Shown: in pieces, positions 8,671 to 47,034 of the stretch
How the letters are laid out: every line of letters starts with the position of its first letter
How positions within the stretch are numbered: the stretch's first letter is position 1
Assembly (NCBI GenBank): GCA_964450715.1
Contig: CAYVFC010000016.1
Coordinates: 1-58,677 of the forward strand
Length of the DNA: 58,677 nt
Direction: 5' to 3'
Source: an uncultured Sandaracinaceae bacterium
GTDB lineage: Bacteria; Myxococcota_A; Polyangia; Polyangiales; JAFGIB01
Made by a program: the position numbers and the translations under genes
The notes under the pieces: model-generated
Told to the model about the DNA's origin: nothing
Databases searched by the model: none
What the model saw: only the letters and a program-made list of their open reading frames with translations

Positions 8671-9783
8671 TCATGCCTTTGCCTTGCCGTCGCCCAGAAG
8701 CTGCGCGGACAGGAGCTTGTCGAGGCCGTCGGAACCGACAACCATGCGTACCTCCTGGATACGCGATGCGATGTCCTTGATGGACTCGAGCTCCTTGAGC
8801 CGCAGCAGGACCGGGTTTTCGGCCATGACGCGGGCGGTGTTGGCCAGGGAACGAGTCGCAGCGGTCTCCTCGCGACGGAGGATGACGTTAGCTGCAGCCT
8901 CCTTCTCGGCCTCGATGACGCGGTTGAGCAGGGTCTTCATTTCGCCCGGCAGGACCACGTCCTTGACGCCGATGCGCTCGATACGCACGCCGAAGCGCGC
9001 AGCGCGGGCGATGGTCTGCTCCTCGAGGAAACGCGTCATGGCGTCGCGACCCTCGAGCAGCTCGTCGAGCGTGACGCCGGCCACGTACTGGCGGGCTGCC
9101 AGCTGCACGAGCAGGTAGACGGCGTCGCGCGGATCCTGCACCGCGTGGGCCATCAGGGCCGGGGCCTCGACCGCGTACTCCGCGGTCAGCGTCAGTCGCA
9201 TGGTGACCTTGTCACGGGTCATCAGCTCCTGACCGGTCAGCGCTACCTGCTGCCGGCGCATGTCGACAGCCTGGACCGTGACCTCGGCCTCGGGATGGGT
9301 CCACAGGGCGTAACGACCCGGCTCGAGCACGCCCGCGATACGTCCCTGCACGTAGTGCAAGCCGCGCTCGTACTCGCGCACCACGGTGTAGACGTACTCG
9401 TTGGGCGGAATGACACCCACGAGCTCGTCCGTCAGCTTGGGCATGGGCCGGTCGATCGCCATCAGCTTCAGCTGTACGGACGGGTCTACCTTCCAGTAGC
9501 GATGCACGCCCGGCCGCAGGAACACGCGCGGCTTTCCATCGCGGAACAGGATTCCGCGCTGGTTGTCCGCGATGGTGACCTCGGCGAACCACTGCTCCGG
9601 CAGCACGGCCCGGACCTCGGGCAGCGCTCCGAACACCAGTGCATCGGTCTGCCAGCGCTGTTCGGTGAGTCGCATGCCCCACACGGTGTGCCGGCCCGGG
9701 CCCAGGGCCCGGAACGGGAGGCCGTCGCGGAACACGACAACGCGCTCGTTCAGCTTCACACGGATTCTCTTGTAGATGAACAT
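8671..9783 (-). CDS. SPFH/band-7 (slipin/HflC-like) domain protein
   Basis: Start chosen at MFIYKRIRV (ATG 9783), preceded by GGGAGG 6 nt upstream. The long N-terminal extension in the ORF track is Arg-rich GC-frame noise. A conserved SPFH core follows. Confidence 0.75.
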   Translation of the reverse strand: MFIYKRIRVKLNERVVVFRDGLPFRALGPGRHTVWGMRLTEQRWQTDALVFGALPEVRAVLPEQWFAEVTIADNQRGILFRDGKPRVFLRPGVHRYWKVDPSVQLKLMAIDRPMPKLTDELVGVIPPNEYVYTVVREYERGLHYVQGRIAGVLEPGRYALWTHPEAEVTVQAVDMRRQQVALTGQELMTRDKVTMRLTLTAEYAVEAPALMAHAVQDPRDAVYLLVQLAARQYVAGVTLDELLEGRDAMTRFLEEQTIARAARFGVRIERIGVKDVVLPGEMKTLLNRVIEAEKEAAANVILRREETAATRSLANTARVMAENPVLLRLKELESIKDIASRIQEVRMVVGSDGLDKLLSAQLLGDGKAKA

Positions 9784-10429
9784 GGGAAGCCTCCCATACG
9801 CCGGTACCGCCGGCTTGCGGGCAGCGCCGCCACTGGCAGCGCTGCGGGTTATCCAGAGGGCCCGTTGAGAACGGGCCCGGAAAAGGCGGCCTCGAGAGGC
9901 CGGGCTTCGGCCCTGCCGGGCTTCGATTGCTACGGCTCTGCCCGCGGGGCAAAGCGTTCGCAACGGAGCGCAACAGAACCAGGACCCAGAAACGCGCAGA
10001 CGATTGCGGGTCCGCGTGCAGGGCGCGGCAGCGGTCGCCGCTGCGATGGCCACCGACCGTGGACACGGACGCGAACCGCCCGGGCGTTTACGGGTTTCGC
10101 GGAGCGACAGGCGAACACAAGCGCTCACCCGCGCGCCGGCGAAGTTGAAGCCACGACCCCCTTTGGCCTGGTACAAGGACGGTTAACAGCCGTCTGCAGG
10201 CTTGATAGGCCCGTTACCTGTGCTCTACCCACTGAGCCACATGGATCCCAAGTCCATGGGGAGAGTCGAACTCCCGACACCAGGTGGTTGCTCAACGCTG
10301 CAAAGGTACACGTGCGCAAAACAGGCAGCACGCGCACACGGCAACGTAGAACCGGCAACCGGACGCACGCGCGGTGACTCCAGCGAGACCGCACGGCGCG
10401 GCACCGCGCCGACGCCAGCCATTGAACAG

Positions 10430-10501
10430 TGCTTCCGGGGAGAATCGAACTCCCGTTTCCGGATTGAAAGTCCGGCGTCCTCACCATTGGACGACGGAAG
10501 C
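10430..10501 (-). tRNA. tRNA-Glu (anticodon TTC)
   Basis: Cloverleaf on the minus strand: acceptor GCTTCCG/CGGAAGC, anticodon stem CCGGA/TCCGG with loop CTTTCAA, T-arm GGGAGTTCGATTCTCCC. Confidence 0.7.
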
Positions 10502-10607
10502 GAATCGAACGCTTTGTGAACCGGCCGTTTTTATGGGCTTTTTTGTAATAGTACGAGACCAACAGCTCGCCCTTGACGACCGATCTCTAGGAGATCACCA
10601 TCGAGCT

Positions 10608-11366
10608 ATGTCGGCCGCCTCGAAGATCGAGTGGACGGAAACCACCTGGAATCCAGTACGCGGGTGCTCACGCGTTTCACCTGGATGCCAGACCTGTTAC
10701 GCCGAACGCATGGCACACCGTTTTAGCAGTCCTGGTATGCCTTACGAGCGGCTAACACGATCGTCCGCAAACGGGCCTAGATGGACCGGCCGACTTCGCA
10801 TCGTAGCTGACGCCATTGAAGAACCTCTTCGGTGGAGGAGGCCCCGGCTGGTCTTCGTTAACTCGATGTCCGACCTTTTCCACGAAGGTCTTCGGGATGA
10901 CGTCATAAAAGAAGTTTTCGAGACCATGGAACGCGCGCACTGGCATACGTTTCAAGTACTCACGAAGCGTGCAGACCGCCTAGCTGAGATGGCGCAGGAT
11001 TTGCGTTGGCCGACCAATATTTGGATGGGAGTTAGCGTAGAAACAGCGGACTACCTTTGGCGTGTTGACAAACTCCGAAGTGTACCGGCCGCTATTCGTT
11101 TCGTATCGATGGAACCTCTGCTTGGGCCGCTCCCGTCGCTCTCGCTTAGAAGAATTCATTGGGTAATCGTAGGAGGCGAGTCTGGACCCGGATCACGACC
11201 TATGGAAGAGGTTTGGGTACGAGGTATTCTAGAGCGTTGCCGAAGGGCCTCAGTACCTTTCTTCTTCAAACAGTGGGGAGGCGTTAGAAAAAACCGACTA
11301 GGACGGTGCCTCGACGGCCGTACCTACGACGAAATGCCGGAACCGCTAGAGCCAGTCTGGCAGTAA
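10608..11366 (+). CDS. phage Gp37/Gp68 family protein (DUF5131)
   Basis: N-terminal IEWTETTWNPVRGCSRVSPGCQTCYAE signature. AGGAGA RBS upstream of ATG 10608. The longer ORF start at 10374 overlaps tRNA-Glu and is rejected. Confidence 0.7.
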   Translation: MSAASKIEWTETTWNPVRGCSRVSPGCQTCYAERMAHRFSSPGMPYERLTRSSANGPRWTGRLRIVADAIEEPLRWRRPRLVFVNSMSDLFHEGLRDDVIKEVFETMERAHWHTFQVLTKRADRLAEMAQDLRWPTNIWMGVSVETADYLWRVDKLRSVPAAIRFVSMEPLLGPLPSLSLRRIHWVIVGGESGPGSRPMEEVWVRGILERCRRASVPFFFKQWGGVRKNRLGRCLDGRTYDEMPEPLEPVWQ

Positions 11367-11370
11367 CGCA

Positions 11371-12249
11371 ATGAATCCTGCATCCAAGAACGACTGCCCT
11401 CACTGTGGAACCAGGCAAGAAAACGGCAACTGCCCTGAGCCGCTCGACGATGGGCACGCCGTCCAATGCGTCGGTGGTTGGGCTCAATGGAAGCATCATT
11501 ATCTGAGCCAGTATATCGACGCGACGTGGAGAACCCGCGTAAAATACTTGCCCCCGAACGGTACGGGAGGAGCTGCCTATATCGATCTTTTCGCGGGACC
11601 GGGCCGGGCTCGGATACGTGATACCGGCGAGGTCATTGACGGTAGCCCTCTTATCGCGATGAGCCACGAGAAGGCCCCTTTCTCGAAAATCCTTCTCTGC
11701 GACCTAGAAAGCGACAACGTTACGGCACTGAAGGAACGATCTCGCCGATACGGAGACCGTGCAGAGGTTTTCAGCTTAGACTCTAACGCTGAGACTTCGG
11801 CCATTATCAATGCTATTCCGAACCTAGGACTAAATCTAGCTCTCGTAGATCCATTTCGACCGCGTGATCTGAAGTGGACCACGATCGAGAAGCTGGCAAA
11901 TCTCCAACGAATGGACTTGATTATAAACTTCGCCACAGGATTCATAAGACGCAATCTATTCGATTCTCCTGGATACGATCGCGTAGTTGACGAGATGCTT
12001 CCCTCCGATAGCGCGTGGAGGACTGCCGTTAGATCGACGAAAGAAGTGTCTAGGTTAATCGAATACTTCCGTAACGGATTGATCGATCTCGGATACGACG
12101 AATCTTGTGTTCGTTGCATTCCGGTTACGAATCGAAGAAACGTCGTGCTGTATCATCTGGTATTCGCGTCGAAACGCGATTTAGGTACCAGAATCTGGAA
12201 CAGCATCGCGCGCTCCGACCCGACCGGACAACGAGATTTTGGTTTCTAG
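11371..12249 (+). CDS. three-Cys-motif partner protein TcmP (methyltransferase-like)
   Basis: Starts 4 nt after the Gp37/Gp68 stop. N-terminal CPHCG...NGNCPEP Cys cluster, HWKHHYL, and an IDLFAGPG Rossmann motif I typical of SAM-dependent methyltransferases. Confidence 0.6.
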   Translation: MNPASKNDCPHCGTRQENGNCPEPLDDGHAVQCVGGWAQWKHHYLSQYIDATWRTRVKYLPPNGTGGAAYIDLFAGPGRARIRDTGEVIDGSPLIAMSHEKAPFSKILLCDLESDNVTALKERSRRYGDRAEVFSLDSNAETSAIINAIPNLGLNLALVDPFRPRDLKWTTIEKLANLQRMDLIINFATGFIRRNLFDSPGYDRVVDEMLPSDSAWRTAVRSTKEVSRLIEYFRNGLIDLGYDESCVRCIPVTNRRNVVLYHLVFASKRDLGTRIWNSIARSDPTGQRDFGF

Positions 12250-12283
12250 ATACTCGGGGACCCGCGTCCTTGAACAGAAGTAG

Positions 12284-12356
12284 TGTCCCCGGCGGGAATC
12301 GAACCCGCATCTGCTGGTCGAGAGCCAACCATCCTGAGCCGTTAGACGACGGGGAC
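12284..12356 (-). tRNA. tRNA-Glu (anticodon CTC)
   Basis: GTCCCCGTCGTCTAACGGCTCAGGA... resembles bacterial tRNA-Glu. Anticodon loop CTCTCGA, T-arm GCGGGTTCGATTCCCGC. Confidence 0.7.
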
Positions 12357-12369
12357 GTTGTCGGAGGGG

Positions 12370-12440
12370 TGCGACTGACCGGAATCGAACCGGTTCTTCC
12401 GCCGTGGCGGGGCGGCGTGCGGCCGGAACACCTCAGTCGC
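12370..12440 (-). tRNA. tRNA-Gly (anticodon GCC, C33 non-canonical)
   Basis: Acceptor GCGACTG/CAGTCGC, anticodon stem CCGCC/GGCGG with loop CCGCCAC, T-arm ACCGGTTCGATTCCGGT. Confidence 0.6.
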
Positions 12441-12582
12441 AACGGCGGAGAGCAGAGGAGTCGAACCTCGACGCCGAAGCGCCTGCCGGGTAGCGGCCGG
12501 CCGTGACGCCACCGTCACTGTGCTATCCCTGTTCGCCACTCACCTCGGTGGCGGAAGGTGGAGGAGTCGAACATGACTGTAG

Positions 12583-12632
12583 CCGTGCAAAGCGGAGCGG
12601 ACGCCAGTCCGCGGAGCTGCACGGGTATAGTC
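12583..12632 (-). repeat. conserved structured hairpin motif, copy 1 (core AGCGGAGYGGACGYCAGTCCRCGGAGCTG)
   Basis: Plus-strand sequence ccgtgcaAAGCGGAGCGGACGCCAGTCCGCGGAGCtgcacgg. The outer stem and the inner GCGGAC/GTCCGC stem both pair, with covariation relative to copies 2 and 3. Confidence 0.6.
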
Positions 12633-12741
12633 CTGTCGACGGGTCGGAGCGAAGCGGAGACCCTAGTCAACCCCTACGTCGGAACGTCCCCGGATTTCGA
12701 GACCGGTGTGGCACCGCTGCCACGTCACCTTCCATTCACGG

Positions 12742-12828
12742 GGCGGAAGCCGGAGGTCTCGATCCCCATGCCTACTGGCACGCGCCCGCTTCCAACGGGG
12801 CCCGAGTCCCACTCGGTTCAGCTTCCGC
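12742..12828 (-). tRNA. tRNA-like, Ser-type (anticodon GGA?) with long variable arm and aberrant T-arm
   Basis: Acceptor GCGGAAG/CTTCCGC, candidate anticodon loop TTGGAAG, long variable stem TGCC-AGTA-GGCA. The T-arm is degenerate, so this may be a pseudo-tRNA. Confidence 0.35.
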
Positions 12829-12842
12829 TTTGCGATGTAAGG

Positions 12843-12916
12843 TCGGGATGGTGGGCTTCGAACCCACGGCCTCCTGCTCCCGAAGCAGGCGCGCTCCCAG
12901 ACTGCGCCACATCCCG
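12843..12916 (-). tRNA. tRNA-Pro (anticodon CGG)
   Basis: Acceptor CGGGATG/CATCCCG, D-arm GCGCAGTCTGGGAGCGC, anticodon stem CCTGC/GCAGG with loop TTCGGGA, T-arm GTGGGTTCGAAGCCCAC. Confidence 0.75.
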
Positions 12917-13052
12917 TAAATACTTCTAGCGGCTAGTGCTATAAGATCCCCGGGGGAAGACAGCGGCGTCAGCGCGTCCCTGAATTCTTGACCTGAATTC
13001 GCGACCGCGTCAGACGCACCACGCGTCTGTCTTCACCCCGGGGGAGTCGAAC

Positions 13053-13595
13053 TCAGTTGCGCGGCTCATCCGAGTCCTCCTCCAGCGCCCCGTGCCAGTA
13101 CAACCAGTTGGTCCAGGCCTCGGGGATGGTGCACGCGGGGTCGATCCTGAAGGCGACCACCGGAAGCCATCTGGGCTTTTCCGGCTGCTTCAGAAGCCGC
13201 ATGCCGGCCTGCTCGGGGGTCCGGTGACCCTTGCGCCCGTTGCAGCGGTAGCAGGCCATGACGACATTCTCCCACCTGGTCTTTCCGCCCTGGGAGCGGG
13301 GAACCACGTGGTCGTACGTCAGCTTGCTGAGCGGGGACTTTCTCCCGCAGTATTGGCAGCGAAAACCGTCGCGCGTGGCGACGTTCATCCGCGAGAACTT
13401 CACCCCTCGTCTGCCCCGGATCGCGCGCAACAGGCGAACGACCGCGGGCATCTTGATGGTGAAGGTCACGGAACGGACGTCCTCGTCGTACTCCTCGATA
13501 ACCTCGACCTTGCCGTCGAAGAGCATGAGAACGGCGCGCTGCCAGCTAACGACACGGTGGGGCTGATACCCCTGATCCAGTACGAGCGTTCGCAT
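13053..13595 (-). CDS. HNH endonuclease
   Basis: CQYCG...YDHVVPRSQGG...WENVVMACYRCNGRKG is an HNH motif with a zinc-binding Cys pair. AAGGAGG RBS upstream of ATG 13595. Embedded in the tRNA array. Confidence 0.85.
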   Translation of the reverse strand: MRTLVLDQGYQPHRVVSWQRAVLMLFDGKVEVIEEYDEDVRSVTFTIKMPAVVRLLRAIRGRRGVKFSRMNVATRDGFRCQYCGRKSPLSKLTYDHVVPRSQGGKTRWENVVMACYRCNGRKGHRTPEQAGMRLLKQPEKPRWLPVVAFRIDPACTIPEAWTNWLYWHGALEEDSDEPRN

Positions 13596-13618
13596 GTTGC
13601 ACCTCCTTTTTCTATCTG

Positions 13619-13692
13619 CACTGGAGGGTGCGGACGGCGAGATTCGAACTCGCACTTGCCTGGGCTTGAATCAGGTGCCTCTGCCGATTGGG
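13619..13692 (-). tRNA. tRNA (anticodon ambiguous, CAA or TCA; short variable arm)
   Basis: Acceptor GCGGACG/CGTCCGC, D-arm GCCCAATCGGCAGAGGC, T-arm GCGAGTTCGAATCTCGC. The anticodon stem has an A-C mismatch. Confidence 0.55.
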
Positions 13693-13720
13693 CCACGTCC
13701 GCTCCATGCCGTTCCTGGCG

Positions 13721-13807
13721 CCTAGTCTGGTGCTGGGGACAGGAGTCGAACCTGCACGGCCACTATGGACCACCGGAGTCTGAGTCCGGCGCGTATTCCT
13801 GTTCCGC
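13721..13807 (-). tRNA. tRNA-Leu (anticodon CAG), long variable arm
   Basis: Acceptor GCTGGGG/CCCCAGC, anticodon stem CCGGA/TCCGG with loop CTCAGAC, an 18-nt variable arm, T-arm GCAGGTTCGACTCCTGT. Confidence 0.7.
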
Positions 13808-13819
13808 CACCCCAGCGTC

Positions 13820-13894
13820 CATGCTCGAGTGCCCACGGGAAGATTCGAACCTCCACTGTACGGATTCTTAGTCCGCTGCCTCTGCCGGGTTGGG
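13820..13894 (-). tRNA. tRNA with anticodon AAG (Leu-type anticodon but short variable arm; non-canonical)
   Basis: Acceptor GCCCACG/CGTGGGC, D-arm GCCCAACCCGGCAGAGGC, anticodon stem GCGGA/TCCGT with loop CTAAGAA, T-arm GGAGGTTCGAATCTTCC. Confidence 0.55.
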
Positions 13895-13899
13895 CTACG

Positions 13900-14070
13900 T
13901 GGGCCTGGTGCGAGCGGCCGGAGTCGCACGTGGTCGAAAATGTGCAAAGCGGAGTGGACGTCAGTCCACGGAGCTGCACATTTTCGGACGCGATACGGGT
14001 CGAAGACCCTAGTGCACCGGCACTGTCCCGGGTTTAAATCGAGCGCCTCTGCCGATTGGGCTACGCTCGC
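13900..14070 (-). ncRNA. aberrant 171-nt tRNA-like element with large insertion containing hairpin-motif copy 2; CCA encoded
   Basis: Perfect acceptor pair GCGAGCG...CGCTCGC-A-CCA. The tRNA-like D-arm GCCCAATCGGCAGAGGC is followed by about 100 nt with no canonical anticodon arm, then a T-loop-like TGCGACTCCGGCC. Confidence 0.45.
13937..13990 (-). repeat. conserved structured hairpin motif, copy 2
   Basis: gaaaatgtgcaAAGCGGAGTGGACGTCAGTCCACGGAGCtgcacattttc. It has an 11-bp outer stem and an inner GTGGAC/GTCCAC stem. Confidence 0.6.
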
Positions 14071-14076
14071 ATTGGG

Positions 14077-14149
14077 TACGGGGGGCCGGAGTCGAACCGG
14101 CGACCTCCTGTTTGTAAGACAGGCGCTCTTCCAGTTGAGCTACCCCCGC
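14077..14149 (-). tRNA. tRNA-Val (anticodon TAC)
   Basis: Acceptor GCGGGGG/CCCCCGT, D-arm GCTCAACTGGAAGAGC, anticodon stem CCTGT/ACAGG with loop CTTACAA, T-arm GCCGGTTCGACTCCGGC. Confidence 0.75.
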
Positions 14150-14156
14150 ATCTTGG

Positions 14157-14225
14157 TCCCGCCGAGCGGAATCGAACCGCCACCGTCGCCCTTATGAGAG
14201 GCGCGTCCGACCTTCGGACGGCGGG
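14157..14225 (-). tRNA. tRNA-Met (anticodon CAT), short D-arm, CCA encoded
   Basis: Acceptor CCCGCCG/CGGCGGG followed by ACCA, anticodon loop CTCATAA, T-arm GGCGGTTCGATTCCGCT. 69 nt. Confidence 0.6.
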
Positions 14226-14226
14226 T

Positions 14227-14298
14227 TGCGGGGGCAAGAATCGAACTTGCGGCGCTCCGGCGTATGAAACCGGGCTGGGATACCAGCACCCTCCCCGC
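14227..14298 (-). tRNA. tRNA-Met/Ile2-type (anticodon CAT), second copy
   Basis: Acceptor GCGGGG(A)/(C)CCCCGC, anticodon stem CCGGT/GCCGG with loop TTCATAC, T-arm GCAAGTTCGATTCTTGC. Confidence 0.6.
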
Positions 14299-14310
14299 GG
14301 CAACCCGCGG

Positions 14311-14384
14311 CGTCCCCGGAAGGAGTCGAACCTTCACGAAACCCGGCTTCGGAGACCGGCGCTCTTCCATTGAGCTACGAGGAC
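14311..14384 (-). tRNA. tRNA-Arg (anticodon CCG)
   Basis: Acceptor GTCCTCG/CGGGGAC, D-arm AGCTCAATGGAAGAGC, anticodon loop CTCCGAA, T-arm GAAGGTTCGACTCCTTC. Confidence 0.75.
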
Positions 14385-14409
14385 GAAAAGATACCTGACG
14401 CCTGCGCGG

Positions 14410-14482
14410 CACCCGCGGGGAGACTCGAACTCCCACCCTCCTGGTTCGTAGCCAGGCGCTCGTCCGCTTGAGCTTCGCGGGC
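14410..14482 (-). tRNA. tRNA-Arg (anticodon ACG)
   Basis: Acceptor GCCCGCG/CGCGGGT, D-arm GCTCAAGCGGACGAGC, anticodon stem CCTGG/CCAGG with loop CTACGAA, T-arm GGGAGTTCGAGTCTCCC. Confidence 0.75.
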
Positions 14483-14486
14483 ATGG

Positions 14487-14559
14487 CTCCCCCGACAGGA
14501 TTCGAACCTGCAAAGGCCGGCTTAGAAGACCGGTGCCCGTCCGATCGGGCTTCGGGGGC
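14487..14559 (-). tRNA. tRNA-Arg (anticodon TCT), CCA encoded
   Basis: Anticodon stem CCGGT/GCCGG with loop CTTCTAA, T-arm GCAGGTTCGAATCCTGT, acceptor ...CGGGGGA-G-CCA with a G1-A72 mismatch. Confidence 0.65.
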
Positions 14560-14587
14560 GACTTCCGTTAGGCGTACGTATCGACGG

Positions 14588-14658
14588 AGTGGCGGGAGGG
14601 AATCGAACCCTCGCATACCGGACTTGCAAACCGGTCCCTGCCCATTCGGATCCGCCAC
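14588..14658 (-). tRNA. tRNA-Cys (anticodon GCA)
   Basis: Acceptor GTGGCGG/CCGCCAC, anticodon loop TTGCAAG, T-arm GAGGGTTCGATTCCCTC. Confidence 0.6.
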
Positions 14659-14727
14659 GTAGCGGGCCCTGCCAGGCGGGAGCGTTTCAGGTCACACGGT
14701 CGTTATCCGTTGTACTCCCGCAAGGCA

Positions 14728-14799
14728 TAAGGCCCGGTGCGCCCGGCGGGATTCGAACCCGCTCCACCTGATTGGAAGCCAGGCGTGCTGCCTTGAACA
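14728..14799 (-). tRNA. tRNA-Gly (anticodon TCC)
   Basis: Acceptor GCGTCCG/CGGGCGC, anticodon stem CCTGG/TCAGG with loop CTTCCAA, T-arm GCGGGTTCGAATCCCGC. Confidence 0.7.
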
Positions 14800-14805
14800 C
14801 CTCGG

Positions 14806-14877
14806 ACGCAATTCGTGGAGCCGCGGGGAATCGAACCCCGGTCTTCCGCTTGCAAGGCGGATGCTCTCCCGGTTAAG
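14806..14877 (-). tRNA. tRNA-Ala (anticodon TGC)
   Basis: Acceptor GGGGCCG/CGGCTCC with the G3-U70 Ala identity pair, anticodon stem TCCGC/GCGGA with loop CTTGCAA, T-arm CGGGGTTCGATTCCCCG. Confidence 0.75.
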
Positions 14878-14886
14878 CGACGGCCC

Positions 14887-14958
14887 CTCTGGTCGGTAGG
14901 CCGGGCGCGAGTCGAACGCGCATCGGCCGCTTATAAGGCGACTGCTCTCTCCCTTGAG
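14887..14958 (-). tRNA. tRNA-Ile (anticodon TAT), unusual isoacceptor
   Basis: Acceptor GGGCCGG/CCGGCCT, D-arm GCTCAAGGGAGAGAGC, anticodon stem GTCGC/GCGGC with loop CTTATAA, T-arm GCGCGTTCGACTCGCGC. Confidence 0.6.
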
Positions 14959-14963
14959 CTACC

Positions 14964-15035
14964 GGCCCTTCGGTCCTCCCGGAAGGACTTGAACCTTCAT
15001 TTCCCGGTCATCAGCCGAGCGTCCTGGCCATTGGA
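14964..15035 (-). tRNA. tRNA-Ile (anticodon GAT)
   Basis: Acceptor CCTCCTG/CGGGAGG, anticodon stem CTCGG/CCGGG with loop CTGATGA, T-arm GAAGGTTCAAGTCCTTC. Confidence 0.7.
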
Positions 15036-15039
15036 CGAC

Positions 15040-15114
15040 AGGAGGGCGGGCTGGTCGGACGGACTCGAACCGACTTGCACCAGACTCACATTCTGGGCCC
15101 TCGACCACTTCGGG
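15040..15114 (-). tRNA. tRNA-His (anticodon GTG) with G-1
   Basis: 8-bp acceptor G-CTGGTCG/CGACCAG-C, anticodon stem CCAGA/TCTGG with loop ATGTGAG, T-arm GTCGGTTCGAGTCCGTC. Confidence 0.7.
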
Positions 15115-15159
15115 ATCGACCAGCATAGTCGTTCAGGCAGCGATACATCCCTCGACGGA

Positions 15160-15291
15160 TTCGCCTTGGTGTCACGGACCGGAATCGAACCGTTCGGCCG
15201 TCCCACGTCCGCTGCGCGGCCGTGAGTTTTTTGGACAGCCTCACCTCCTGGGTTTCAACCAGGCGCTCTTACCGTAGTGAGCTACCGTGAC
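15160..15291 (-). tRNA. tRNA-Phe (anticodon GAA) carrying a ~55-nt structured insertion between anticodon stem and T-stem
   Basis: Acceptor GTCACGG/CCGTGAC-A-CC, D-arm GCTCACTACGGTAAGAGC, anticodon stem CCTGG/CCAGG with loop TTGAAAC. A GC-rich insert GGTGAGGCTGTCC-A6-CTCACGGCCGCGCAGCGGACGTGGGACGGCC follows, then T-arm ACGGTTCGATTCCGGT. Confidence 0.6.
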
Positions 15292-15299
15292 GATGACGG

Positions 15300-15370
15300 C
15301 GCCACGTACGGGAATCGAACCCATCTCGACCGGTCGACAACCGGCTCGCATCCCAGATGCGCAACGTGGC
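15300..15370 (-). tRNA. tRNA-Asp (anticodon GTC)
   Basis: Acceptor GCCACGT/ACGTGGC-G, D-arm CGCATCTGGGATGCG, anticodon stem GCCGG/CCGGT with loop TTGTCGA, T-arm ATGGGTTCGATTCCCGT. Confidence 0.75.
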
Positions 15371-15420
15371 TTCATCACCCGCTCCTCCAAGACCCGGCAC
15401 GCCGTGGAGGAATCGACCGC

Positions 15421-15480
15421 CGTTGAAAACGTCCGGAGCGGAGTGGACGTCAGTCCACGGAGCTGGACGTTTTCAACGGT
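15421..15480 (-). repeat. conserved structured hairpin motif, copy 3 (inside a degenerate tRNA-like region, 15371-15555)
   Basis: gttgaaaacgtccGGAGCGGAGTGGACGTCAGTCCACGGAGCTggacgttttcaac, with a 13-bp outer stem. Flanked by a Trp-like anticodon hairpin (CTCCAAA) and a T-arm-like GGCGGTCGATTCCTCC. Confidence 0.6.
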
Positions 15481-15560
15481 GGCGACGGAGCGCGAAGCGC
15501 GGAGTCAACCCCCCGCGGTCGGGTTTGGAGCCCAACCTGCGCCCAGCGCCCGACGTCTAG

Positions 15561-15633
15561 CTCCGGAGGCAGGATTCGAACCTGCGGTTTGCCGGTTAAC
15601 AGCCGGCCGCCTTTCCGCTTGGCTACCCCGGAA
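15561..15633 (-). tRNA. tRNA-Asn (anticodon GTT)
   Basis: Acceptor TCCGGGG/CTCCGGA, D-arm GCCAAGCGGAAAGGC, anticodon stem GCCGG/CCGGC with loop CTGTTAA, T-arm CGCAGGTTCGAATCCTGC. Confidence 0.7.
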
Positions 15634-15714
15634 TAGTGTGCGGCGCCCGGTCGCCACTCCGGGCGCCCGCACGAAAGCCTTCTCGATTGTCAAAGAACAC
15701 GCTAGCTATGCCGG

Positions 15715-15785
15715 CTCGGGAGGAGGGATTCGAACCCCCGTCGACTTATCCAGAGTCAGTTGTCCTTCCGTTGGACGACTCCCGA
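15715..15785 (-). tRNA. non-canonical tRNA (anticodon uncertain, possibly GGA)
   Basis: Acceptor TCGGGAG/CTCCCGA, D-arm GTCCAACGGAAGGAC, T-arm GGGGGTTCGAATCCCTC. The anticodon arm is irregular (TGACT-CTGGATA-AGTCG). Confidence 0.45.
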
Positions 15786-15880
15786 ATGCTTCAAAGATCG
15801 CTCGAACAAATTTTCAAGAATCTAAACTCCGTTTTCAGGGTGCACTTCGCCGTCCGCCTTCAACGCGGTTGAAGGCGCAG

Positions 15881-15953
15881 TGGATCCGGTGGGCGTCGAA
15901 CCCACACGCGTCCGGTTAAGAGCCGGGTGCTCTGCCTGTTGAGCTACGGATCC
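15881..15953 (-). tRNA. tRNA-Lys (anticodon CTT)
   Basis: Acceptor GGATCCG/CGGATCC, D-arm GCTCAACAGGCAGAGC, anticodon loop CTCTTAA, T-arm GTGGGTTCGACGCCCAC. Confidence 0.7.
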
Positions 15954-15957
15954 GTTG

Positions 15958-16030
15958 TGGGGCCGGTGGGAATCGAACCCACAATCGTCCGGTTAAAAGC
16001 CGGCTGCTCTTCCTGTTGAGCTACGACCCC
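15958..16030 (-). tRNA. tRNA-Lys (anticodon TTT)
   Basis: Acceptor GGGGTCG/CGGCCCC, D-arm GCTCAACAGGAAGAGC, anticodon loop CTTTTAA, T-arm GTGGGTTCGATTCCCAC. Confidence 0.7.
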
Positions 16031-16096
16031 GTTGGGCGCAGCTCTCGTTTTTGTATGTGTAACTTCAATAACATAGCCTCCCTCCGTGTGACCTGG

Positions 16097-16179
16097 TGGG
16101 GCCGGCAGGATTCGAACCTGCATAGCGACCAGCGCGCCCGGTTTACAGCCGAGTTGGGATTCCTGCTCCCCTCGACCCC
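16097..16179 (-). tRNA. tRNA-Tyr (anticodon GTA), long variable arm, CCA encoded
   Basis: Acceptor GGGGTCG/CGGCCCC-A-CCA, D-stem GGGA/TCCC, anticodon stem CTCGG/CCGGG with loop CTGTAAA, 15-nt variable arm, T-arm GCAGGTTCGAATCCTGC. Confidence 0.7.
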
Positions 16180-16238
16180 AGAACACACTACCTTTCGAAT
16201 ACCCTTGTTTTTCAGCTATTTTCTCCCGTTCTTTTCAC

Positions 16239-16271
16239 AAAAAAACCGCCCGAGGCATCTACCTGGGGCGG
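16239..16271 (-). terminator. rho-independent terminator (minus strand)
   Basis: On the minus strand a GC-rich hairpin CCGCCCCAGG...CCTCGGGCGG is followed by TTTTTTTG. It sits immediately upstream (on the transcription side) of the first tRNA of the array. Confidence 0.5.
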
Positions 16272-16960
16272 TCCGAACGCACCGAAATTGCGTTAGTGAC
16301 CGCCCTACACCGGACCCTCCTGAGTATCAAAAAGGATGAAGGCCGAGCTTGAGCCGGTATACGCACACGCCGGGCGTAGATTCATCCCCTTGCCGCCGGA
16401 GGCTGTCCTGGGCAAGCGACTGCTATGGGCTTCCCATGGCAGCCTTTGTTCTTTTTTCGCTATGTTTCTTAAGTTCAACATCCTCGTTCTTTTCGCTTCG
16501 TCTAACTTCAACGGGGCTGAACCCGCCCCGATCTCTTATTGATGTACCCCTTTGACGAACGAGTCAAGTATTTTTTCCAAACAAATCTTCTTCTGGCGGT
16601 TCTTTTTCTCCGCGGGCAATTTCGGCGACCTTTATCCCCGCTACCCCGTCTTACACCCACATACCCGGACACCGTGGCGCCCCACGGCCGCCAGCCTCGT
16701 TAGAAAACACTATTAGGAGATCCATAACGGACCCGGCGGCCGACCGACCGGGCCTCGTATACGGACGGGGTTCTCGAGCCCATTCGTTATAGATCCTTAT
16801 CAGAGAACTCCGAGGCAGTTTTCCACTTGCTCGCCAGACAGTGTCCGTTCACACTACAGCTTCCGTGAAGGGGCGGTAGCGGTACTTCTTCTAGAGAATG
16901 AGAATCGGGGTCACGCGGCGTCGTACGCGGCGCGCATAGAAACCGTAAAAGGATGTAGCA

Positions 16961-17806
16961 ATGCAACGATTGGTTAGACGTTTTTCCGACGCGGGACTGG
17001 TATTGATACCGGCGGGCCAGCCTATCGGTGGGCCTCAAAACGAATCCGTTTTCGGAATGACGATTCTCCGAAAACTTCGGAAGAACACCCGTTCTGAGTA
17101 CTTCTCAATCTGGCCGGGAGACTCTTCTAATCGTCTGGAGGTCGTCAGCGTCGATAAACGGAAGCGCCATGTCGTTTTACTGGTCCACGAGCCCCGCCGT
17201 GAGGTACATCATCGTTTCACCAAGGCGCAGGCAAAACGAACCTCCATTCCAACGGCGGCCACCGGAGTCAAGCGTAACAAGGACGGAAGCGTCGAGTTCG
17301 TTACCCTGAGCCCTTCCCGTAAGCGCCACTTTCTGTGTGGAGTGGATGAGCGCCAGCTGTTCATCGCTCAGCTGCCTCGGGGGGTGACCACCGTACGCGA
17401 CGCCCACGGGTCGCTCGAATCGGTGGAGTTGACGCTTTTTGAAGGGCGAGCGCCCGGGAAGACGGTCCGGCAGGGCGAGTGGTTCTTTCTCAATCCAACG
17501 CCCGAAGAAAGCGAGCAACTCGAGAGGACCATTTCCGATCATTCGGTGGTCGTTCAGAAGAAGGCGTCGATCGGTCGGGTCGCCGGTCGAAACTTCGGCA
17601 ATCCACATACAGCGGACGAGGTCGTTGTGCTCGCGGCACCAAGGCTGGAACACGGCCATCCGGTCCGCGAACGCCCCGACGTGTTTGTCCGCGGTAGAGT
17701 ACGACATCCGGATCACAAGACGGTCTCGTTCAAGACCTGGCGTAAGGTCATTCGAAACGCCGAAACCGACGAAGGACGGATGGAAGGCATCGACTGGATC
17801 GACTGA
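16961..17806 (+). CDS. hypothetical protein (first gene of a three-gene cassette)
   Basis: 281-aa ORF with no recognisable motif. Followed 48 nt later by two nucleotidyltransferase genes on the same strand. Confidence 0.5.
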   Translation: MQRLVRRFSDAGLVLIPAGQPIGGPQNESVFGMTILRKLRKNTRSEYFSIWPGDSSNRLEVVSVDKRKRHVVLLVHEPRREVHHRFTKAQAKRTSIPTAATGVKRNKDGSVEFVTLSPSRKRHFLCGVDERQLFIAQLPRGVTTVRDAHGSLESVELTLFEGRAPGKTVRQGEWFFLNPTPEESEQLERTISDHSVVVQKKASIGRVAGRNFGNPHTADEVVVLAAPRLEHGHPVRERPDVFVRGRVRHPDHKTVSFKTWRKVIRNAETDEGRMEGIDWID

Positions 17807-47030: not shown

Positions 47031-47034
47031 CTCA

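What the first reader, a model, noticed from the sequence alone, without database searches (positions are those of the whole stretch)
10190..16280. Dense minus-strand tRNA gene array (at least 27 tRNAs in about 6 kb) with phage-type passengers
I can fold at least 27 tRNA genes between 10.4 and 16.2 kb, all on the minus strand and often only 2-10 nt apart. They cover Glu x2, Gly x2, Pro, Leu, Val, Met x2, Arg x3, Cys, Ala, Ile x2, His, Phe, Asp, Asn, Lys x2, Tyr, plus several unassignable ones.

Many are non-canonical. Examples are A34 or C33 in the anticodon loop, a UAU Ile anticodon, shortened D-arms, a G1-A72 mismatch, and CCA encoded in some genes but not others.

The array is interleaved with an HNH endonuclease and a Gp37/Gp68-TcmP gene pair. 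It is bounded on the right by an AT-rich junction with a terminator, and on the left by tRNA fragments.

This is the architecture of mobile tRNA arrays known from phages and actinobacterial islands. Such arrays are thought to buffer codon usage or to replace tRNAs destroyed by anticodon nucleases.

I do not recall such a feature in Myxococcota genomes, and I ran no search. Its size and its content of aberrant tRNAs make it the most unusual feature of the window.
Basis: partly seen in the sequence, partly recalled or inferred. Interest (0 to 1): 0.85.

Follow-up and report, generated by a model that had tools for sequence, protein, structure and literature searches.

The report
Phage-type tRNA gene array with attenuator
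A myxobacterial chromosome carries about 30 spare tRNA genes in one operon that closely resembles arrays in giant phage-like contigs, and a conserved upstream switch appears to turn the operon on when protein synthesis falters.

Summary
ARAGORN and the Rfam tRNA model together tRNA genes at 10429-16179, all on the minus strand. Three more (Ser-CGA, Leu-UAA, Trp-CCA) become callable once an 88-99-nt element is removed from their T loops.

It is a long tRNA array ("L-array"), a known kind. The same gene order, with a homologous HNH gene fixed between tRNA-Leu(CAA) and tRNA-Pro, recurs in IMG/VR viral contigs of 57-435 kb (many over 200 kb) and other Myxococcota metagenome contigs. Myxococcus phage Mx1 has the closest cultured relative of the HNH.

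The "boundary terminator" is part of a leader conserved in nine loci: promoter-like box (strict match in five), small ORF, and mutually exclusive antiterminator and terminator hairpins just before the first tRNA.

I infer a stress-inducible backup tRNA operon, derepressed when leader translation fails. It sits among tRNA-repair (two RlaP) and candidate defence genes. The DUF5131/TcmP pair and the T-loop elements are secondary insertions. Function and regulation are inferred, not shown.

The parts
16537..16567 (-). Promoter-like box TTGACT-N17/18-CATCAATA
   Evidence: Conserved in position and sequence in window, L020, L022, L064 and L066. It was not picked up by the generic sigma-70 scan.
16305..16481 (-). 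Leader ORF (58 codons, MLNLRN...DTQEGPV*)
   Evidence: In 9 loci an ATG in the conserved context GGAACGAnCnATG opens an ORF of 23-58 codons. Its stop codon abuts the antiterminator arm in 7 loci and lies 7-21 nt further on in two (L066, L023). The leader frame has no stops in any locus; the other two frames have stops in 8/9 and 7/9. GC3 is the highest codon position in 7 of 9. The C-terminal motif is E(D/G)P(V/T)*.
16236..16307 (-). Attenuator: antiterminator hairpin (GGGCGGUC...GACCGCCC) overlapping an intrinsic terminator (CCGCCCC..GGGCGG + U7)
   Evidence: The two structures are mutually exclusive and of similar stability in 9 loci (-16 to -27 against -19 to -21 kcal/mol). The inner antiterminator helix differs in sequence in every locus. 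The element lies 10-110 nt before the first tRNA.
16094..16179 (-). tRNA-Tyr(GUA), CCA encoded
15957..16030 (-). tRNA-Lys(UUU)
15880..15953 (-). tRNA-Lys(CUU)
   Evidence: It is 84% identical to its neighbour Lys-UUU (D10).
15713..15785 (-). tRNA-Gln(CUG)
15560..15632 (-). tRNA-Asn(GUU)
15396..15556 (-). tRNA-Trp(CCA) split in the T loop by a 91-nt element (15416-15506)
   Evidence: Removing the element gives a 70-nt tRNA that ARAGORN calls at default settings.
15298..15370 (-). tRNA-Asp(GUC)
15167..15291 (-). tRNA-Phe(GAA) with a 47-nt hairpin insertion (15196-15242) in the variable region; CCA encoded
   Evidence: Rfam 43.8 bits. ARAGORN calls it only in intron mode. Removing the insertion gives a 78-nt tRNA; the insertion has no other copy in the loci held.
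15048..15123 (-). tRNA-His(GUG) with G-1
   Evidence: sequence
14972..15045 (-). tRNA-Ile(GAU)
14895..14968 (-). tRNA-Ile(UAU)
   Evidence: The same isoacceptor is present in array L035.
14815..14887 (-). tRNA-Ala(UGC)
14736..14809 (-). tRNA-Gly(UCC)
   Evidence: 36.6 bits
14588..14658 (-). tRNA-Cys(GCA)
   Evidence: Rfam 39.5 bits. ARAGORN calls it only at a relaxed threshold.
14484..14559 (-). tRNA-Arg(UCU), CCA encoded
14408..14482 (-). tRNA-Arg(ACG)
14309..14384 (-). tRNA-Arg(CCG)
14224..14299 (-). tRNA-Met(CAU), initiator-like C1xA72
   Evidence: sequence
14154..14225 (-). tRNA-Met(CAU), CCA encoded
14073..14150 (-). tRNA-Val(UAC)
   Evidence: 71.9 bits
13906..14070 (-). tRNA-Leu(UAA), short variable arm, split in the T loop by an 88-nt element (13927-14014); CCA encoded
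   Evidence: Removing the element gives a 77-nt tRNA that ARAGORN calls at default settings.
13829..13904 (-). tRNA-Leu(AAG), 76 nt, short variable arm, A34
   Evidence: Leu-AAG recurs in 7 other arrays, and short tRNA-Leu genes recur in 5.
13728..13816 (-). tRNA-Leu(CAG), long variable arm, CCA encoded
13627..13702 (-). tRNA-Leu(CAA), 76 nt
13053..13595 (-). HNH endonuclease gene (180 aa), same strand as the tRNAs, AAGGAGG Shine-Dalgarno-like motif upstream
   Evidence: Pfam HNH and HNH_5. More than 3,400 homologues, the top 120 at 70-88% identity. The position Leu-CAA > HNH > Pro is fixed in the closer related arrays. Homologues occur on Nostoc, Acaryochloris and Mycolicibacterium plasmids and in phage Mx1.
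12841..12916 (-). tRNA-Pro(CGG)
12742..12826 (-). Degenerate tRNA-Ser(GGA)-like gene (T loop AUCGAGA)
   Evidence: ARAGORN calls it only at a relaxed threshold. It occupies the position of Ser-GGA in L023 and L027.
12549..12733 (-). tRNA-Ser(CGA) split in the T loop by a 99-nt element (12570-12668); CCA encoded
   Evidence: Removing the element gives an 86-nt tRNA that ARAGORN calls at default settings.
12444..12528 (-). tRNA-Ser(GCU), C33
12367..12441 (-). tRNA-Gly(GCC), C33
12283..12356 (-). tRNA-Glu(CUC)
11371..12249 (+). TcmP (three-Cys-motif partner protein); secondary insertion
   Evidence: TIGR04474, 142 bits. PADLOC PDC-M41A. G+C 0.53. Among the loci held at that point (L001-L061) it is found only in L001, the copy of this window.
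10608..11366 (+). DUF5131 (Gp37/Gp68) protein; secondary insertion
   Evidence: PF07505, 318 bits. PADLOC PDC-M41B, 344 bits. Start codon assigned.
10429..10501 (-). tRNA-Glu(UUC)
   Evidence: 73.4 bits. It is 88% identical to the L020 copy.
10213..10287 (-). Y-RNA-like (YrlA-like) permuted tRNA mimic: closing stem, T arm, closed acceptor hairpin, D arm
   Evidence: RF02553 at 35 bits, below its gathering score of 69. Homologous copies are in L020, L022 and L023. All 19 pairs of the mimic are kept in three sequences and 5 show compensatory changes.
10178..10212 (-). Two anticodon-stem-loop-like hairpins with 7-nt loops (CUAUCAA, CUGUUAA)
   Evidence: Present in L020; in L022 the first hairpin has one broken pair and the second has a 5-nt loop.
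8671..9783 (-). SPFH/Band-7 gene downstream of the array
   Evidence: PF01145. It is adjacent to the array in L020, L021 and L022 at 61-87% identity. Start codon assigned.
16961..17806 (+). Unknown 281-aa protein, first gene of the divergent RlaP operon
   Evidence: No family or PDB match. It has 674 homologues in varied genomic contexts.
17855..18661 (+). RlaP nucleotidyltransferase 1
   Evidence: PF10127, 150 bits
18664..19809 (+). RlaP nucleotidyltransferase 2 (N-terminal RlaP domain)
   Evidence: PF10127, 71 bits

Best explanation
The locus is a chromosomal copy of a tRNA-array module (an 'L-array') that Myxococcota share with large phages. Its contents run in this order: a leader, about 30 co-oriented tRNA genes for 18-19 amino acids, an embedded HNH gene, and a Y-RNA-like tRNA mimic.

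I propose it is one conditionally transcribed operon. Transcription would start at a conserved promoter-like box about 330 nt upstream of the first tRNA. It then passes through a 58-codon leader ORF whose stop codon touches the 5' arm of an antiterminator hairpin.

When ribosomes translate the leader to its end, they mask that arm. The overlapping intrinsic terminator then forms, and the array stays silent.

When translation fails, the antiterminator forms and RNA polymerase reads into the array. Causes could be tRNAs cleaved or depleted by anticodon nucleases or toxins, or ribosome inhibitors. RNase P and 3' processing enzymes would then release a replacement set of tRNAs.

Some of these tRNAs have unusual anticodon loops (C33, A34) that may escape tRNA-targeting nucleases. 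The neighbouring RlaP enzymes would mend damaged tRNA ends.

What is shown: the gene content, the homology and synteny with phage arrays, and the conserved leader anatomy.

What is inferred: co-transcription, the ribosome-sensing logic, the inducing signals, and any benefit to the cell.
For: - There are 27 intact and 3 split tRNA genes on one strand. All 26 ARAGORN calls have a canonical UUCRANNC T loop.
- The isoacceptor order and the HNH position match those in at least five large IMG/VR contigs and other metagenome contigs. The closest cultured relative of the HNH is in Myxococcus phage Mx1.
- The HNH is homologous to genes on Nostoc, Acaryochloris and mycobacterial plasmids. An HNH gene is linked to and co-regulated with the Anabaena L-array (PMC8421152).
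- The leader is present in 9 loci: an ATG in a conserved context, an ORF open only in that frame, a stop at or near the antiterminator arm, and mutually exclusive hairpins of similar stability. In L022 the U-run ends about 10 nt before the first tRNA, so transcription must pass through it.
- The neighbourhood is about RNA repair and defence. Two RlaP genes lie next to the array, and RlaP adds nucleotides to damaged tRNA ends (PMC12776372). RtcR and RtcB lie next to the L020 array. The Y-RNA-like RNA is conserved. Ro60 genes lie inside related arrays. Candidate defence genes PDC-M41, PDC-S27 and PDC-S01 are nearby.
- C33 and short tRNA-Leu genes recur across the array family.
- The Anabaena L-array is silent until translation is inhibited (PMC8421152).
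Against: - There are no expression data.
- The leader has no run of diagnostic codons, so what it senses is unknown.
- The leader ORF could encode a small protein with its own function.
- The generic sigma-70 scan did not call the promoter-like box.
- Signs of decay argue that at least part of the array is dispensable: three genes interrupted, a 47-nt insertion in Phe, a degenerate Ser-GGA, no intact Trp gene, and no Thr gene.
- Whether the tRNAs are supernumerary could not be tested, because the rest of the genome is not in hand.
- No Ro60 gene is present in the window.
Confidence: 0.55

Rival explanations
1. The array is a decaying relic. It was captured from a phage or other mobile element, has no present function, and is slowly being destroyed by insertions and point mutations.
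For: - Three genes are split by a host repeat element.
- tRNA-Phe carries a 47-nt insertion.
- The Ser-GGA-like gene is degenerate.
- A defence gene pair is inserted in the array.
- There is no Thr gene, although Thr genes are present in the phage arrays.
- Several genes score only 36-45 bits with the Rfam tRNA model.
Against: - 27 genes keep full cloverleaves and canonical T loops.
- The leader ORF and the hairpin switch are conserved across 9 diverged loci, although the tRNA sequences themselves have drifted to 50-94% identity.
- The arrangement array, Y-RNA-like RNA, SPFH gene is kept in four related contigs.
Confidence: 0.2
2. The RNAs act as decoys rather than translation substrates. Array transcripts, the Y-RNA-like mimic and the anticodon-loop-like hairpins would soak up tRNA-targeting nucleases or toxins and so spare the housekeeping tRNAs.
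For: - A tRNA mimic and two anticodon-stem-loop-like hairpins are conserved at the 3' end of the array.
- The array contains many non-canonical tRNAs.
- A sponge role was suggested for the Anabaena L-array (PMC8421152).
Against: - Acceptor stems, discriminator bases, G-1 of tRNA-His and the initiator-like C1xA72 are kept, as expected for tRNAs that are charged.
- The near-complete coverage of amino acids is more than a decoy would need.
Confidence: 0.12
3. The array is a constitutive supplement that adjusts the tRNA pool to codon usage, for example for lower-G+C islands, and has no link to stress or conflict.
For: - The array includes A/U-ending decoders that are rare in high-G+C genomes: Lys-UUU, Leu-UAA, Ile-UAU and Glu-UUC.
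- The window contains blocks of lower G+C.
Against: - An intrinsic terminator lies directly in front of the first tRNA in every locus.
- Most isoacceptors decode common G/C-ending codons.
- The Leu-UAA gene is one of the interrupted genes.
Confidence: 0.08
4. The region is part of an integrated prophage or another active mobile element.
For: - Homologous arrays lie in viral contigs.
- An HNH gene is embedded in the array.
Against: - The flanks are ordinary chromosomal genes: a two-component system, UppS, hydrolases, SPFH and RlaP.
- No integrase, terminase or structural gene was seen among the ORFs scanned.
- No flanking direct repeats were found.
- No DNA similarity to known phages was found beyond the tRNA genes and one short (221-nt, 68%) match inside the DUF5131 gene.
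Confidence: 0.03

Closest known systems
L-arrays (long tRNA gene arrays), e.g. the trn operon of Anabaena sp. PCC 7120 (Santamaria-Gomez et al. 2021, PMC8421152)
   Same: - Dozens of co-oriented, tightly spaced tRNA genes with no periodic pattern.
- A mixture of canonical and odd tRNAs.
- A linked HNH gene whose family also has homologues on Nostoc and Acaryochloris plasmids (37-43% identity).
- Neighbours involved in RNA repair.
- Patchy distribution across genomes and presence on mobile elements.
- Apparently silent by default.
   Different: - In Anabaena, control is by direct repeats overlapping the promoter. Here a leader ORF with a terminator/antiterminator switch is predicted.
- The HNH gene lies inside the array at a fixed position rather than upstream of it.
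- The array carries a Y-RNA-like RNA.
- None of the array surveys I searched by keyword mentions Myxococcota.
tRNA clusters of large phages: IMG/VR contigs L027-L058, Myxococcus phage Mx1, T4-type clusters with the SegB homing endonuclease
   Same: - Same isoacceptor order and same HNH position as at least five IMG/VR contigs of 61-252 kb.
- Phage Mx1 has the HNH flanked by tRNA-Leu genes, with a Ro60/TROVE gene nearby.
- Y-RNA-like RNAs and Ro60 genes lie inside the viral arrays.
   Different: - The window copy is chromosomal and has no phage genes around it.
- It lacks Ro60, the Thr genes and a tmRNA gene.
- The conserved leader was found in front of the non-IMG/VR arrays (and the phage-like contig L023); its terminator motif has no exact match in the IMG/VR collection (L027-L061), so a diverged version there cannot be excluded.
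- It has been invaded by a host repeat element.
tRNA array units of Mycobacterium and Acidithiobacillus (Tran et al. 2016, PMC4758250; Morgado and Vicente 2018, PMC5966550)
   Same: - It meets the published definition of at least 20 tRNA genes at 2 or more per kb.
- It is associated with mobile elements.
- It adds redundancy rather than new decoding capacity.
- A homologous HNH occurs on Mycolicibacterium plasmids.
   Different: The gene order is unrelated and the phylum is different. No leader, Y-RNA-like RNA or T-loop insertion was mentioned in the passages of those papers that I read.
Ribosome-mediated transcription attenuators (trp, his and pheA leaders)
   Same: A small leader ORF, an intrinsic terminator with a U-run, and an overlapping alternative hairpin. 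The stop codon is placed so that a terminating ribosome would cover the antiterminator arm.
   Different: - It controls tRNA genes, not amino-acid biosynthesis genes.
- It has no run of regulatory codons.
- The leader is long (48-58 codons) with a semi-conserved C terminus, which is more like an arrest peptide.
- No anti-antiterminator hairpin was identified.
YrlA-type bacterial Y RNAs (Chen et al. 2014, PMC4201824; Rfam RF02553)
   Same: A permuted tRNA-like domain (T arm, closed acceptor hairpin, D arm) supported by compensatory changes. Relatives lie beside Ro60 genes in the viral arrays.
   Different: The score is below the Rfam gathering score. Only the tRNA-like part of the model matches. 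By eye I saw no GNCGAA motif upstream. No Ro60 gene is within reach in the window.

Membership tests
tRNA array unit (Tran et al. 2016) | At least 20 tRNA genes at a density of at least 2 per kb | tested here: met
   27 intact genes in 5,751 bp (10429-16179), which is 4.7 per kb. The definition is quoted in the abstract of PMC4758250.
L-array (Santamaria-Gomez et al. 2021) | Long array of same-direction genes close enough to be co-transcribed, with no periodic pattern | tested here: met
   All genes are on the minus strand and most spacers are under 100 nt. The only repeats are tRNA arms and one Lys/Lys duplication.
L-array (Santamaria-Gomez et al. 2021) | Spread by horizontal transfer: patchy distribution, copies on mobile elements | tested here: met
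   Homologous arrays occur in IMG/VR contigs and in a phage-like contig. Chromosomal copies have different upstream neighbours.
L-array (Santamaria-Gomez et al. 2021) | Genes are supernumerary to a dispersed housekeeping tRNA set | not testable with these tools
   Only 58.7 kb of the genome is available, and there are no tRNA genes outside the array in it.
L-array (Santamaria-Gomez et al. 2021) | Linked HNH-family endonuclease gene | tested here: met
   Pfam HNH. Homologues occur on Nostoc (11 records) and Acaryochloris plasmids.
L-array (Santamaria-Gomez et al. 2021) | Silent, then induced by translational stress | not testable with these tools
   Only the conserved terminator/antiterminator leader speaks to this, and only indirectly.
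YrlA Y RNA (Rfam RF02553) | Score at or above the gathering score (69 bits) over the full model | tested here: not met
   35.3 bits, model positions 23-85 of 114. Viral-array relatives reach 48-59 bits over the full length.
YrlA Y RNA (Rfam RF02553) | tRNA-like domain made of a T arm, acceptor-like hairpin and D arm | tested here: met
   19 pairs kept in three sequences, 5 with changes on both sides, none broken.
YrlA Y RNA (Rfam RF02553) | Encoded within about 4 kb of a Ro60/Rsr gene on the same strand | tested here: not met
   tblastn with three Ro60 proteins finds nothing in the window. Ro60 is present inside or beside arrays L028-L030, L032, L058 and L062, and near the HNH in phage Mx1.
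Ribosome-mediated transcription attenuator | Leader ORF plus intrinsic terminator plus mutually exclusive antiterminator | tested here: met
   in 9 loci.
Ribosome-mediated transcription attenuator | Regulatory codons in the leader, and measured read-through that depends on translation | not testable with these tools
   No codon run is evident in the peptides. Read-through needs an experiment.
PADLOC candidate defence system PDC-M41 | Adjacent DUF5131 (B) and TcmP-like (A) genes matching the PADLOC models | tested here: met
   B scores 344 bits and A scores 48 bits. Also PF07505 and TIGR04474.
Bacterial tRNA introns (group I, in the anticodon loop) | A self-splicing intron of 200 nt or more in the anticodon loop that matches intron models | tested here: not met
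   The inserts are 88-99 nt and lie between T-loop positions 55 and 56. No Rfam intron or ribozyme match was found at E up to 1.
MITE or IS200/IS605-type palindromic element (for the T-loop inserts) | Multiple dispersed copies, terminal or subterminal hairpins, a defined target site | tested here: inconclusive
   - Copies are found in 17 Myxococcota loci plus one Planctomycete locus.
- Insertion is at GTT^C, both in T loops and in non-tRNA DNA.
- The 3-nt flank repeat is inconsistent between copies.
- No transposase has been linked to the element.

The most novel reading that the evidence does not exclude
The array and its leader form a self-contained sensor and responder for tRNA loss. Ribosomes translating the conserved leader ORF report on the state of the tRNA pool. 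When tRNAs are cleaved or depleted, for example by anticodon nucleases during phage attack or by toxins, the ribosomes fail to reach the stop codon that masks the antiterminator. The cell then transcribes a spare set of tRNAs of the type carried by large phages, some of them possibly nuclease-resistant. As far as my literature search shows, this would be the first tRNA operon controlled by leader-peptide attenuation.

A second, less likely novelty is that the 88-99-nt T-loop inserts are removed from the RNA, which would make them a new kind of bacterial tRNA intron.
Probability: 0.35. Interest if true: 0.8.

Novelty: new variant of a known kind. Interest (0 to 1): 0.6.

Why it matters
Long tRNA arrays are known, but their purpose in bacteria is still debated. 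Only one, in Anabaena, has been tied to translational stress.

This locus links three things that are usually studied apart: phage tRNA clusters, bacterial L-arrays, and RNA-repair or Y-RNA systems. It does so within a single conserved module shared by Myxococcota chromosomes and large phage-like contigs.

The conserved leader gives a concrete, mutable handle for testing when and why such arrays are switched on. If the attenuator senses tRNA depletion, it would be a simple natural circuit that couples tRNA damage to tRNA replacement. That is relevant to phage defence and counter-defence that target tRNAs.

The element that hits T loops also offers a natural test of which array genes are dispensable.

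Tried and rejected
- DNA similarity of 10-17 kb to 50,697 phage records gave only short tRNA-level matches and one 221-nt, 68% match inside the DUF5131 gene.
- Prophage reading: rejected. The flanks are chromosomal, no integrase or structural genes were seen among the ORFs scanned, and there are no flanking direct repeats.
- T-loop inserts as known introns or ribozymes: rejected. Rfam has no match at E up to 1. By eye the core does not fit a hammerhead.
- T-loop inserts as part of the array family: rejected. nhmmer finds them in no other array among the loci then held, L020-L061.
- An integron attC-like reading of the inserts was considered from the G|TT junctions. It fits type A copies only loosely and cannot explain copies that follow intact tRNAs with a duplicated 3' end. 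Left open.
- Left-hand 'tRNA fragments' as the junction of two tandem tRNA remnants: rejected. The acceptor-like hairpin is closed and co-varies.
- T-box-type sensing in the leader: rejected by eye, because the antiterminator loops are not conserved.
- Ro60 in the window: absent.
- The 281-aa protein at 16961-17806 has no family, no PDB match and no consistent genomic context.
- L063 from the metagenome scan is a chance match inside coding DNA.
- The HNH has no informative full-length match to a solved structure.
- The Acaryochloris locus that was fetched has no tRNA genes within 5 kb of its HNH.

Full report

ARAGORN finds 25 tRNA genes in the window. All are on the minus strand, all lie between 10429 and 16179, and there are none elsewhere. 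The Rfam tRNA covariance model scores 23 loci at or above its gathering score (36-73 bits against a cut-off of 29; E down to 4e-15). It adds Cys-GCA at 14588-14658 and a 122-nt Phe-GAA at 15170-15291. ARAGORN recovers Phe in intron mode and Cys at a relaxed threshold.

All 26 genes that ARAGORN calls have a canonical UUCRANNC T loop.
- C33 occurs in Ser-GCU and Gly-GCC.
- A34 occurs in Leu-AAG and Arg-ACG.
- An Ile-UAU gene is present.
- CCA is encoded in only some genes: Tyr, Phe, Met at 14154, Leu-CAG and Arg-UCU, apparently Val, and two of the split genes.
- I did not see a G1-A72 pair. The Met gene at 14224-14299 has the initiator-like C1xA72 mismatch.

**2. Three more genes, split in the T loop**

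Three homologous hairpin elements share the core CAGCTCCGYGGACTGRCGTCCRCTCCGCT. Zero copies are expected by chance. Each sits between the 5' three-quarters of a tRNA and a T-loop-plus-acceptor 3' end.

I removed 99, 88 and 91 nt (12570-12668, 13927-14014, 15416-15506), cutting between T-loop positions 55 and 56. This yields Ser-CGA (86 nt), Leu-UAA (77 nt) and Trp-CCA (70 nt), all called by ARAGORN at default settings.

The other irregular genes are these:
- A degenerate Ser-GGA-like gene at 12742-12826 has the T loop AUCGAGA.
- tRNA-Phe carries a unique 47-nt hairpin in its variable region, at 15196-15242.

The array therefore holds 30 recognisable genes and one wreck. They cover 19 amino acids, or 18 counting intact genes only. 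Thr is absent, and Trp is present only as a split gene.

**3. Context**

The window is ordinary chromosome, not a phage. It encodes a histidine kinase and response regulator, UppS, hydrolases, an ankyrin protein, radical-SAM enzymes and a ketosynthase cluster. Three proteins lie inside the array:
- An HNH protein at 13053-13595, on the same strand as the tRNAs and preceded by an AAGGAGG motif.
- A DUF5131 (Gp37/Gp68) protein at 10608-11366, on the opposite strand.
- TcmP at 11371-12249, also on the opposite strand.

PADLOC files the DUF5131/TcmP pair as the candidate defence system PDC-M41. Its G+C is 0.53 against 0.60-0.65 around it. Among the loci held at the time (L001-L061), it is found only in L001, the copy of this window. 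I read it as a later insertion.

Upstream of the array, and divergently oriented, are an unknown 281-aa gene and two RlaP nucleotidyltransferases (PF10127). RlaP adds one or two nucleotides to damaged RNA 3' ends, helps restore function to damaged tRNAs, and is common in jumbo phages (PMC12776372 and PMC7824862). Two more candidate defence genes follow, PDC-S27 and PDC-S01. Downstream of the array is an SPFH/Band-7 gene.

**4. Relatives**

The HNH protein has more than 3,400 homologues. The top 120 are 70-88% identical, and every one of them that carries a source name is from Myxococcota MAGs.

Contexts of four homologues show three patterns:
- Arrays followed by the same SPFH gene in L020 and L022. 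RtcR and RtcB lie nearby in L020.
- A 39-tRNA array in a phage-like 143-kb contig, L023.
- A stand-alone HNH in housekeeping DNA, L025.

A scan of IMG/VR found 35 loci. Most contigs with the closer HNH relatives (45-74% identical, 57-252 kb) carry the HNH inside arrays of 29-45 tRNA genes. In at least L027, L029, L030, L031 and L058 the order is the window's: Tyr, Lys-UUU, Lys-CUU, Gln-CUG, Asn, Trp, Asp, Phe ... His, Ile ... Ala, Gly, Cys, Arg-UCU, Arg-ACG, Arg-CCG, Met ... Val, Leu-AAG, Leu-CAG, Leu-CAA, HNH, Pro, Ser genes, Gly-GCC ... Glu-UUC.

Other points about the family:
- Several of these arrays also hold a tmRNA gene.
- Flanking genes in L027 and L029 match a DNA polymerase III delta-subunit (clamp-loader) domain.
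- The tRNA sequences themselves are only 50-94% identical between arrays. Homology therefore rests on gene order and the HNH.
- C33, Leu-AAG and short tRNA-Leu genes recur across the family. They are family traits, not local decay.
- Among cultured phages the best HNH match is Myxococcus phage Mx1 (47% identity). There the HNH is flanked by tRNA-Leu genes and lies near a Ro60/TROVE gene and a peptidyl-tRNA hydrolase.
- The family also includes genes on Nostoc, Acaryochloris, Mycolicibacterium and Mycobacterium plasmids. In cyanobacteria an HNH gene is conserved beside L-arrays and co-regulated with them (PMC8421152).

**5. The 'tRNA fragments' on the left**

The region 10213-10287 folds as a permuted cloverleaf: a closing stem, a T arm, a closed acceptor-like hairpin and a D arm. 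Two anticodon-stem-loop-like hairpins follow.

Rfam's YrlA model matches it below threshold: 35 bits against a gathering score of 69, and only over the tRNA-like part of the model. Homologous copies exist in L020, L022 and L023. In three sequences all 19 pairs of the tRNA-like domain are kept, and five show changes on both sides.

Full-length YrlA-like matches of 48-59 bits lie inside the viral arrays L029, L030 and L058, between called tRNA genes. Ro60 genes lie inside or beside arrays L028-L030, L032, L058 and L062, and near the HNH and tRNA genes in phage Mx1. The window itself has no Ro60 gene.

The caveat of Chen et al. that tandem tRNAs can mimic YrlA does not apply here. The hairpin is closed, and no tRNA gene is called on either side.

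**6. The 'terminator' on the right**

Because the array is on the minus strand, this element lies upstream of it. A 38-nt block is conserved before the first tRNA in L020, L022 and L023. A metagenome scan with that motif returned five more arrays and one chance hit.

All nine loci share the following features:
- A 5' arm (U)AGGGCGGUC pairs with GACCGCCC. The inner helix between them differs in sequence in every locus.
- The 3' arm is also the 5' half of a terminator, CCGCCCC..GGGCGG followed by 5-7 U.
- The two folds exclude each other and have similar stability, -16 to -27 against -19 to -21 kcal/mol.
- The first tRNA starts 10-110 nt after the U-run. In L022 the gap is about 10 nt, so array transcription must pass through the terminator.

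About 250-290 nt further upstream, five loci have a TTGACT-N17/18-CATCAATA box under a strict pattern. All nine have an ATG in the context GGAACGAnCnATG. It opens an ORF of 23-58 codons; eight of the nine have 48-58.

The evidence that this ORF is translated is as follows:
- The stop codon abuts the 5' arm in seven loci and lies 7-21 nt further on in two (L066, L023).
- The leader frame has no stops in any locus. The other two frames have stops in 8/9 and 7/9.
- GC3 is the highest of the three codon positions in 7 of 9.
- The C terminus reads (L/A/Q)E(D/G)P(V/T)*, with synonymous third-position changes and UAG/UAA alternation.

This is the anatomy of a ribosome-mediated attenuator. Rfam has no family at this position. 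A full-text search found no paper that links tRNA arrays to leader-peptide attenuation.

**7. How it most likely works**

What is shown:
- It is a phage-type L-array module, resident in the chromosome.
- It has a conserved leader of attenuator design.
- It lies among genes for tRNA repair and candidate defence.

What is inferred:
- The array is one operon that is held off while ribosomes complete the leader ORF and cover the antiterminator arm.
- It is released when translation falters.
- It then supplies replacement tRNAs.

The only experimentally studied L-array behaves as silent until translation is inhibited, and it is co-regulated with rtcB (PMC8421152).

Rivals are a decaying relic, decoy RNAs, a constitutive codon-usage supplement, and a prophage. 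The conserved leader and intact cloverleaves argue against a relic. The interrupted genes argue that not every member is needed.

**8. The T-loop element**

I followed this up only partly. The core motif has 18 exact matches in GTDB genomes, 17 in Myxococcota MAGs and one in an Isosphaeraceae MAG. It has none in IMG/VR. nhmmer finds it in no other array. It therefore entered this array from the host.

Copies fall into two kinds:
- Copies like those in the window lie at GTT^C(G) in non-tRNA DNA as well (L011, L012, L016).
- Other copies lie just after intact tRNA-Val, Asn or Leu genes, after tmRNA genes, or by tRNA-fMet fragments. They are followed by a repeat of the tRNA 3' end that begins in the T loop.

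Housekeeping genes are thus never left interrupted, while all three array targets are. This suggests that the insertion inactivates the gene and is tolerated only where genes are redundant. The mechanism is open (transposon-like, Y1/HUH-type or integrase-like). A keyword search found no described equivalent.

**9. Novelty and verdict**

The array is real and unusual to see, but it belongs to a known kind. The three array surveys I searched by keyword do not mention Myxococcota. One of them, however, reports L-arrays in all classes of Proteobacteria, a grouping that traditionally included the delta class, where myxobacteria were then placed.

What is new is the following:
- Documented collinearity with arrays in large phage-like contigs.
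- The embedded Y-RNA-like RNA.
- The predicted leader-peptide attenuator.
- The host element that targets T loops.

I rate it a new variant of a known kind, with moderate-to-high interest. Most of the interest rests on the testable attenuator.

Noticed in passing
window 12570-12668, 13927-14014, 15416-15506 (minus strand); loci L002-L019: A family of 90-130-nt hairpin elements (core GCUCCGYGGAC-N4-GUCCRCUCCGC) is spread through Myxococcota MAGs. In the window it splits three tRNA genes between T-loop positions 55 and 56. Elsewhere it lies just after intact tRNA or tmRNA genes, followed by a repeat of the tRNA 3' end, or at GTT^C sites in non-tRNA DNA. I found no description of it.
   Followed up: partly
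window 10178-10287 (minus strand); L020 10848-10910; L022 10878-10943; L029 1503-1639: A Y-RNA-like permuted tRNA mimic is conserved at the end of the chromosomal arrays and inside the viral arrays. In the window it has no Ro60 partner and is followed by two anticodon-loop-like hairpins.
   Followed up: partly
window 15196-15242 (minus strand): tRNA-Phe(GAA) carries a unique 47-nt hairpin insertion in its variable region. It is unrelated to the T-loop element and has no other copy in any locus fetched.
   Followed up: partly
window 20249-21745 (minus strand) and 22781-24001 (plus strand): Two ATPase genes match the PADLOC candidate defence families PDC-S27 (560 bits) and PDC-S01 (357 bits). 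The array therefore lies at the edge of a defence-island-like stretch.
   Followed up: no
window 12917-13052 (minus strand): Directly after the HNH stop codon there is a T-loop-like GTTCGACTCC followed by a long inverted repeat (CCCCGGGGTGAAGACAG ... CTGTCTTCCCCCGGGG). Its meaning is unknown. It could be a tRNA remnant, a processing site or an internal terminator.
   Followed up: no
window 16961-17806 (plus strand): A 281-aa protein heads the RlaP operon. It has no known domain, but 674 homologues exist. One homologue is fused to a peptidyl-tRNA hydrolase domain (PF01981), and some lie in phage-like contigs.
   Followed up: partly
window 46551-52323 (minus strand): A cluster with lower G+C (0.52-0.55) encodes a thioesterase, two ketosynthases, two radical-SAM proteins and a carrier protein. 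It looks like a small biosynthetic gene cluster unrelated to the array.
   Followed up: no
window 24041-25411, 28225-29616, 44222-45523: Three paralogous PETase-like or chlorophyllase-like hydrolase genes lie within 21 kb of each other.
   Followed up: no
L032, L034, L036, L039, L041, L044, L046 (IMG/VR contigs): Related viral arrays carry their own tmRNA genes. L032 has a tRNA with a UUA anticodon (a possible ochre suppressor), and L058 has a tRNA with a 4-base anticodon call.
   Followed up: no
L025 10001-10528: A 73%-identical HNH homologue sits alone among housekeeping genes, next to dapD, with no tRNA genes nearby. The array-linked HNH family therefore also exists as an ordinary chromosomal gene in Myxococcota. 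That is unexpected for a selfish homing endonuclease.
   Followed up: no
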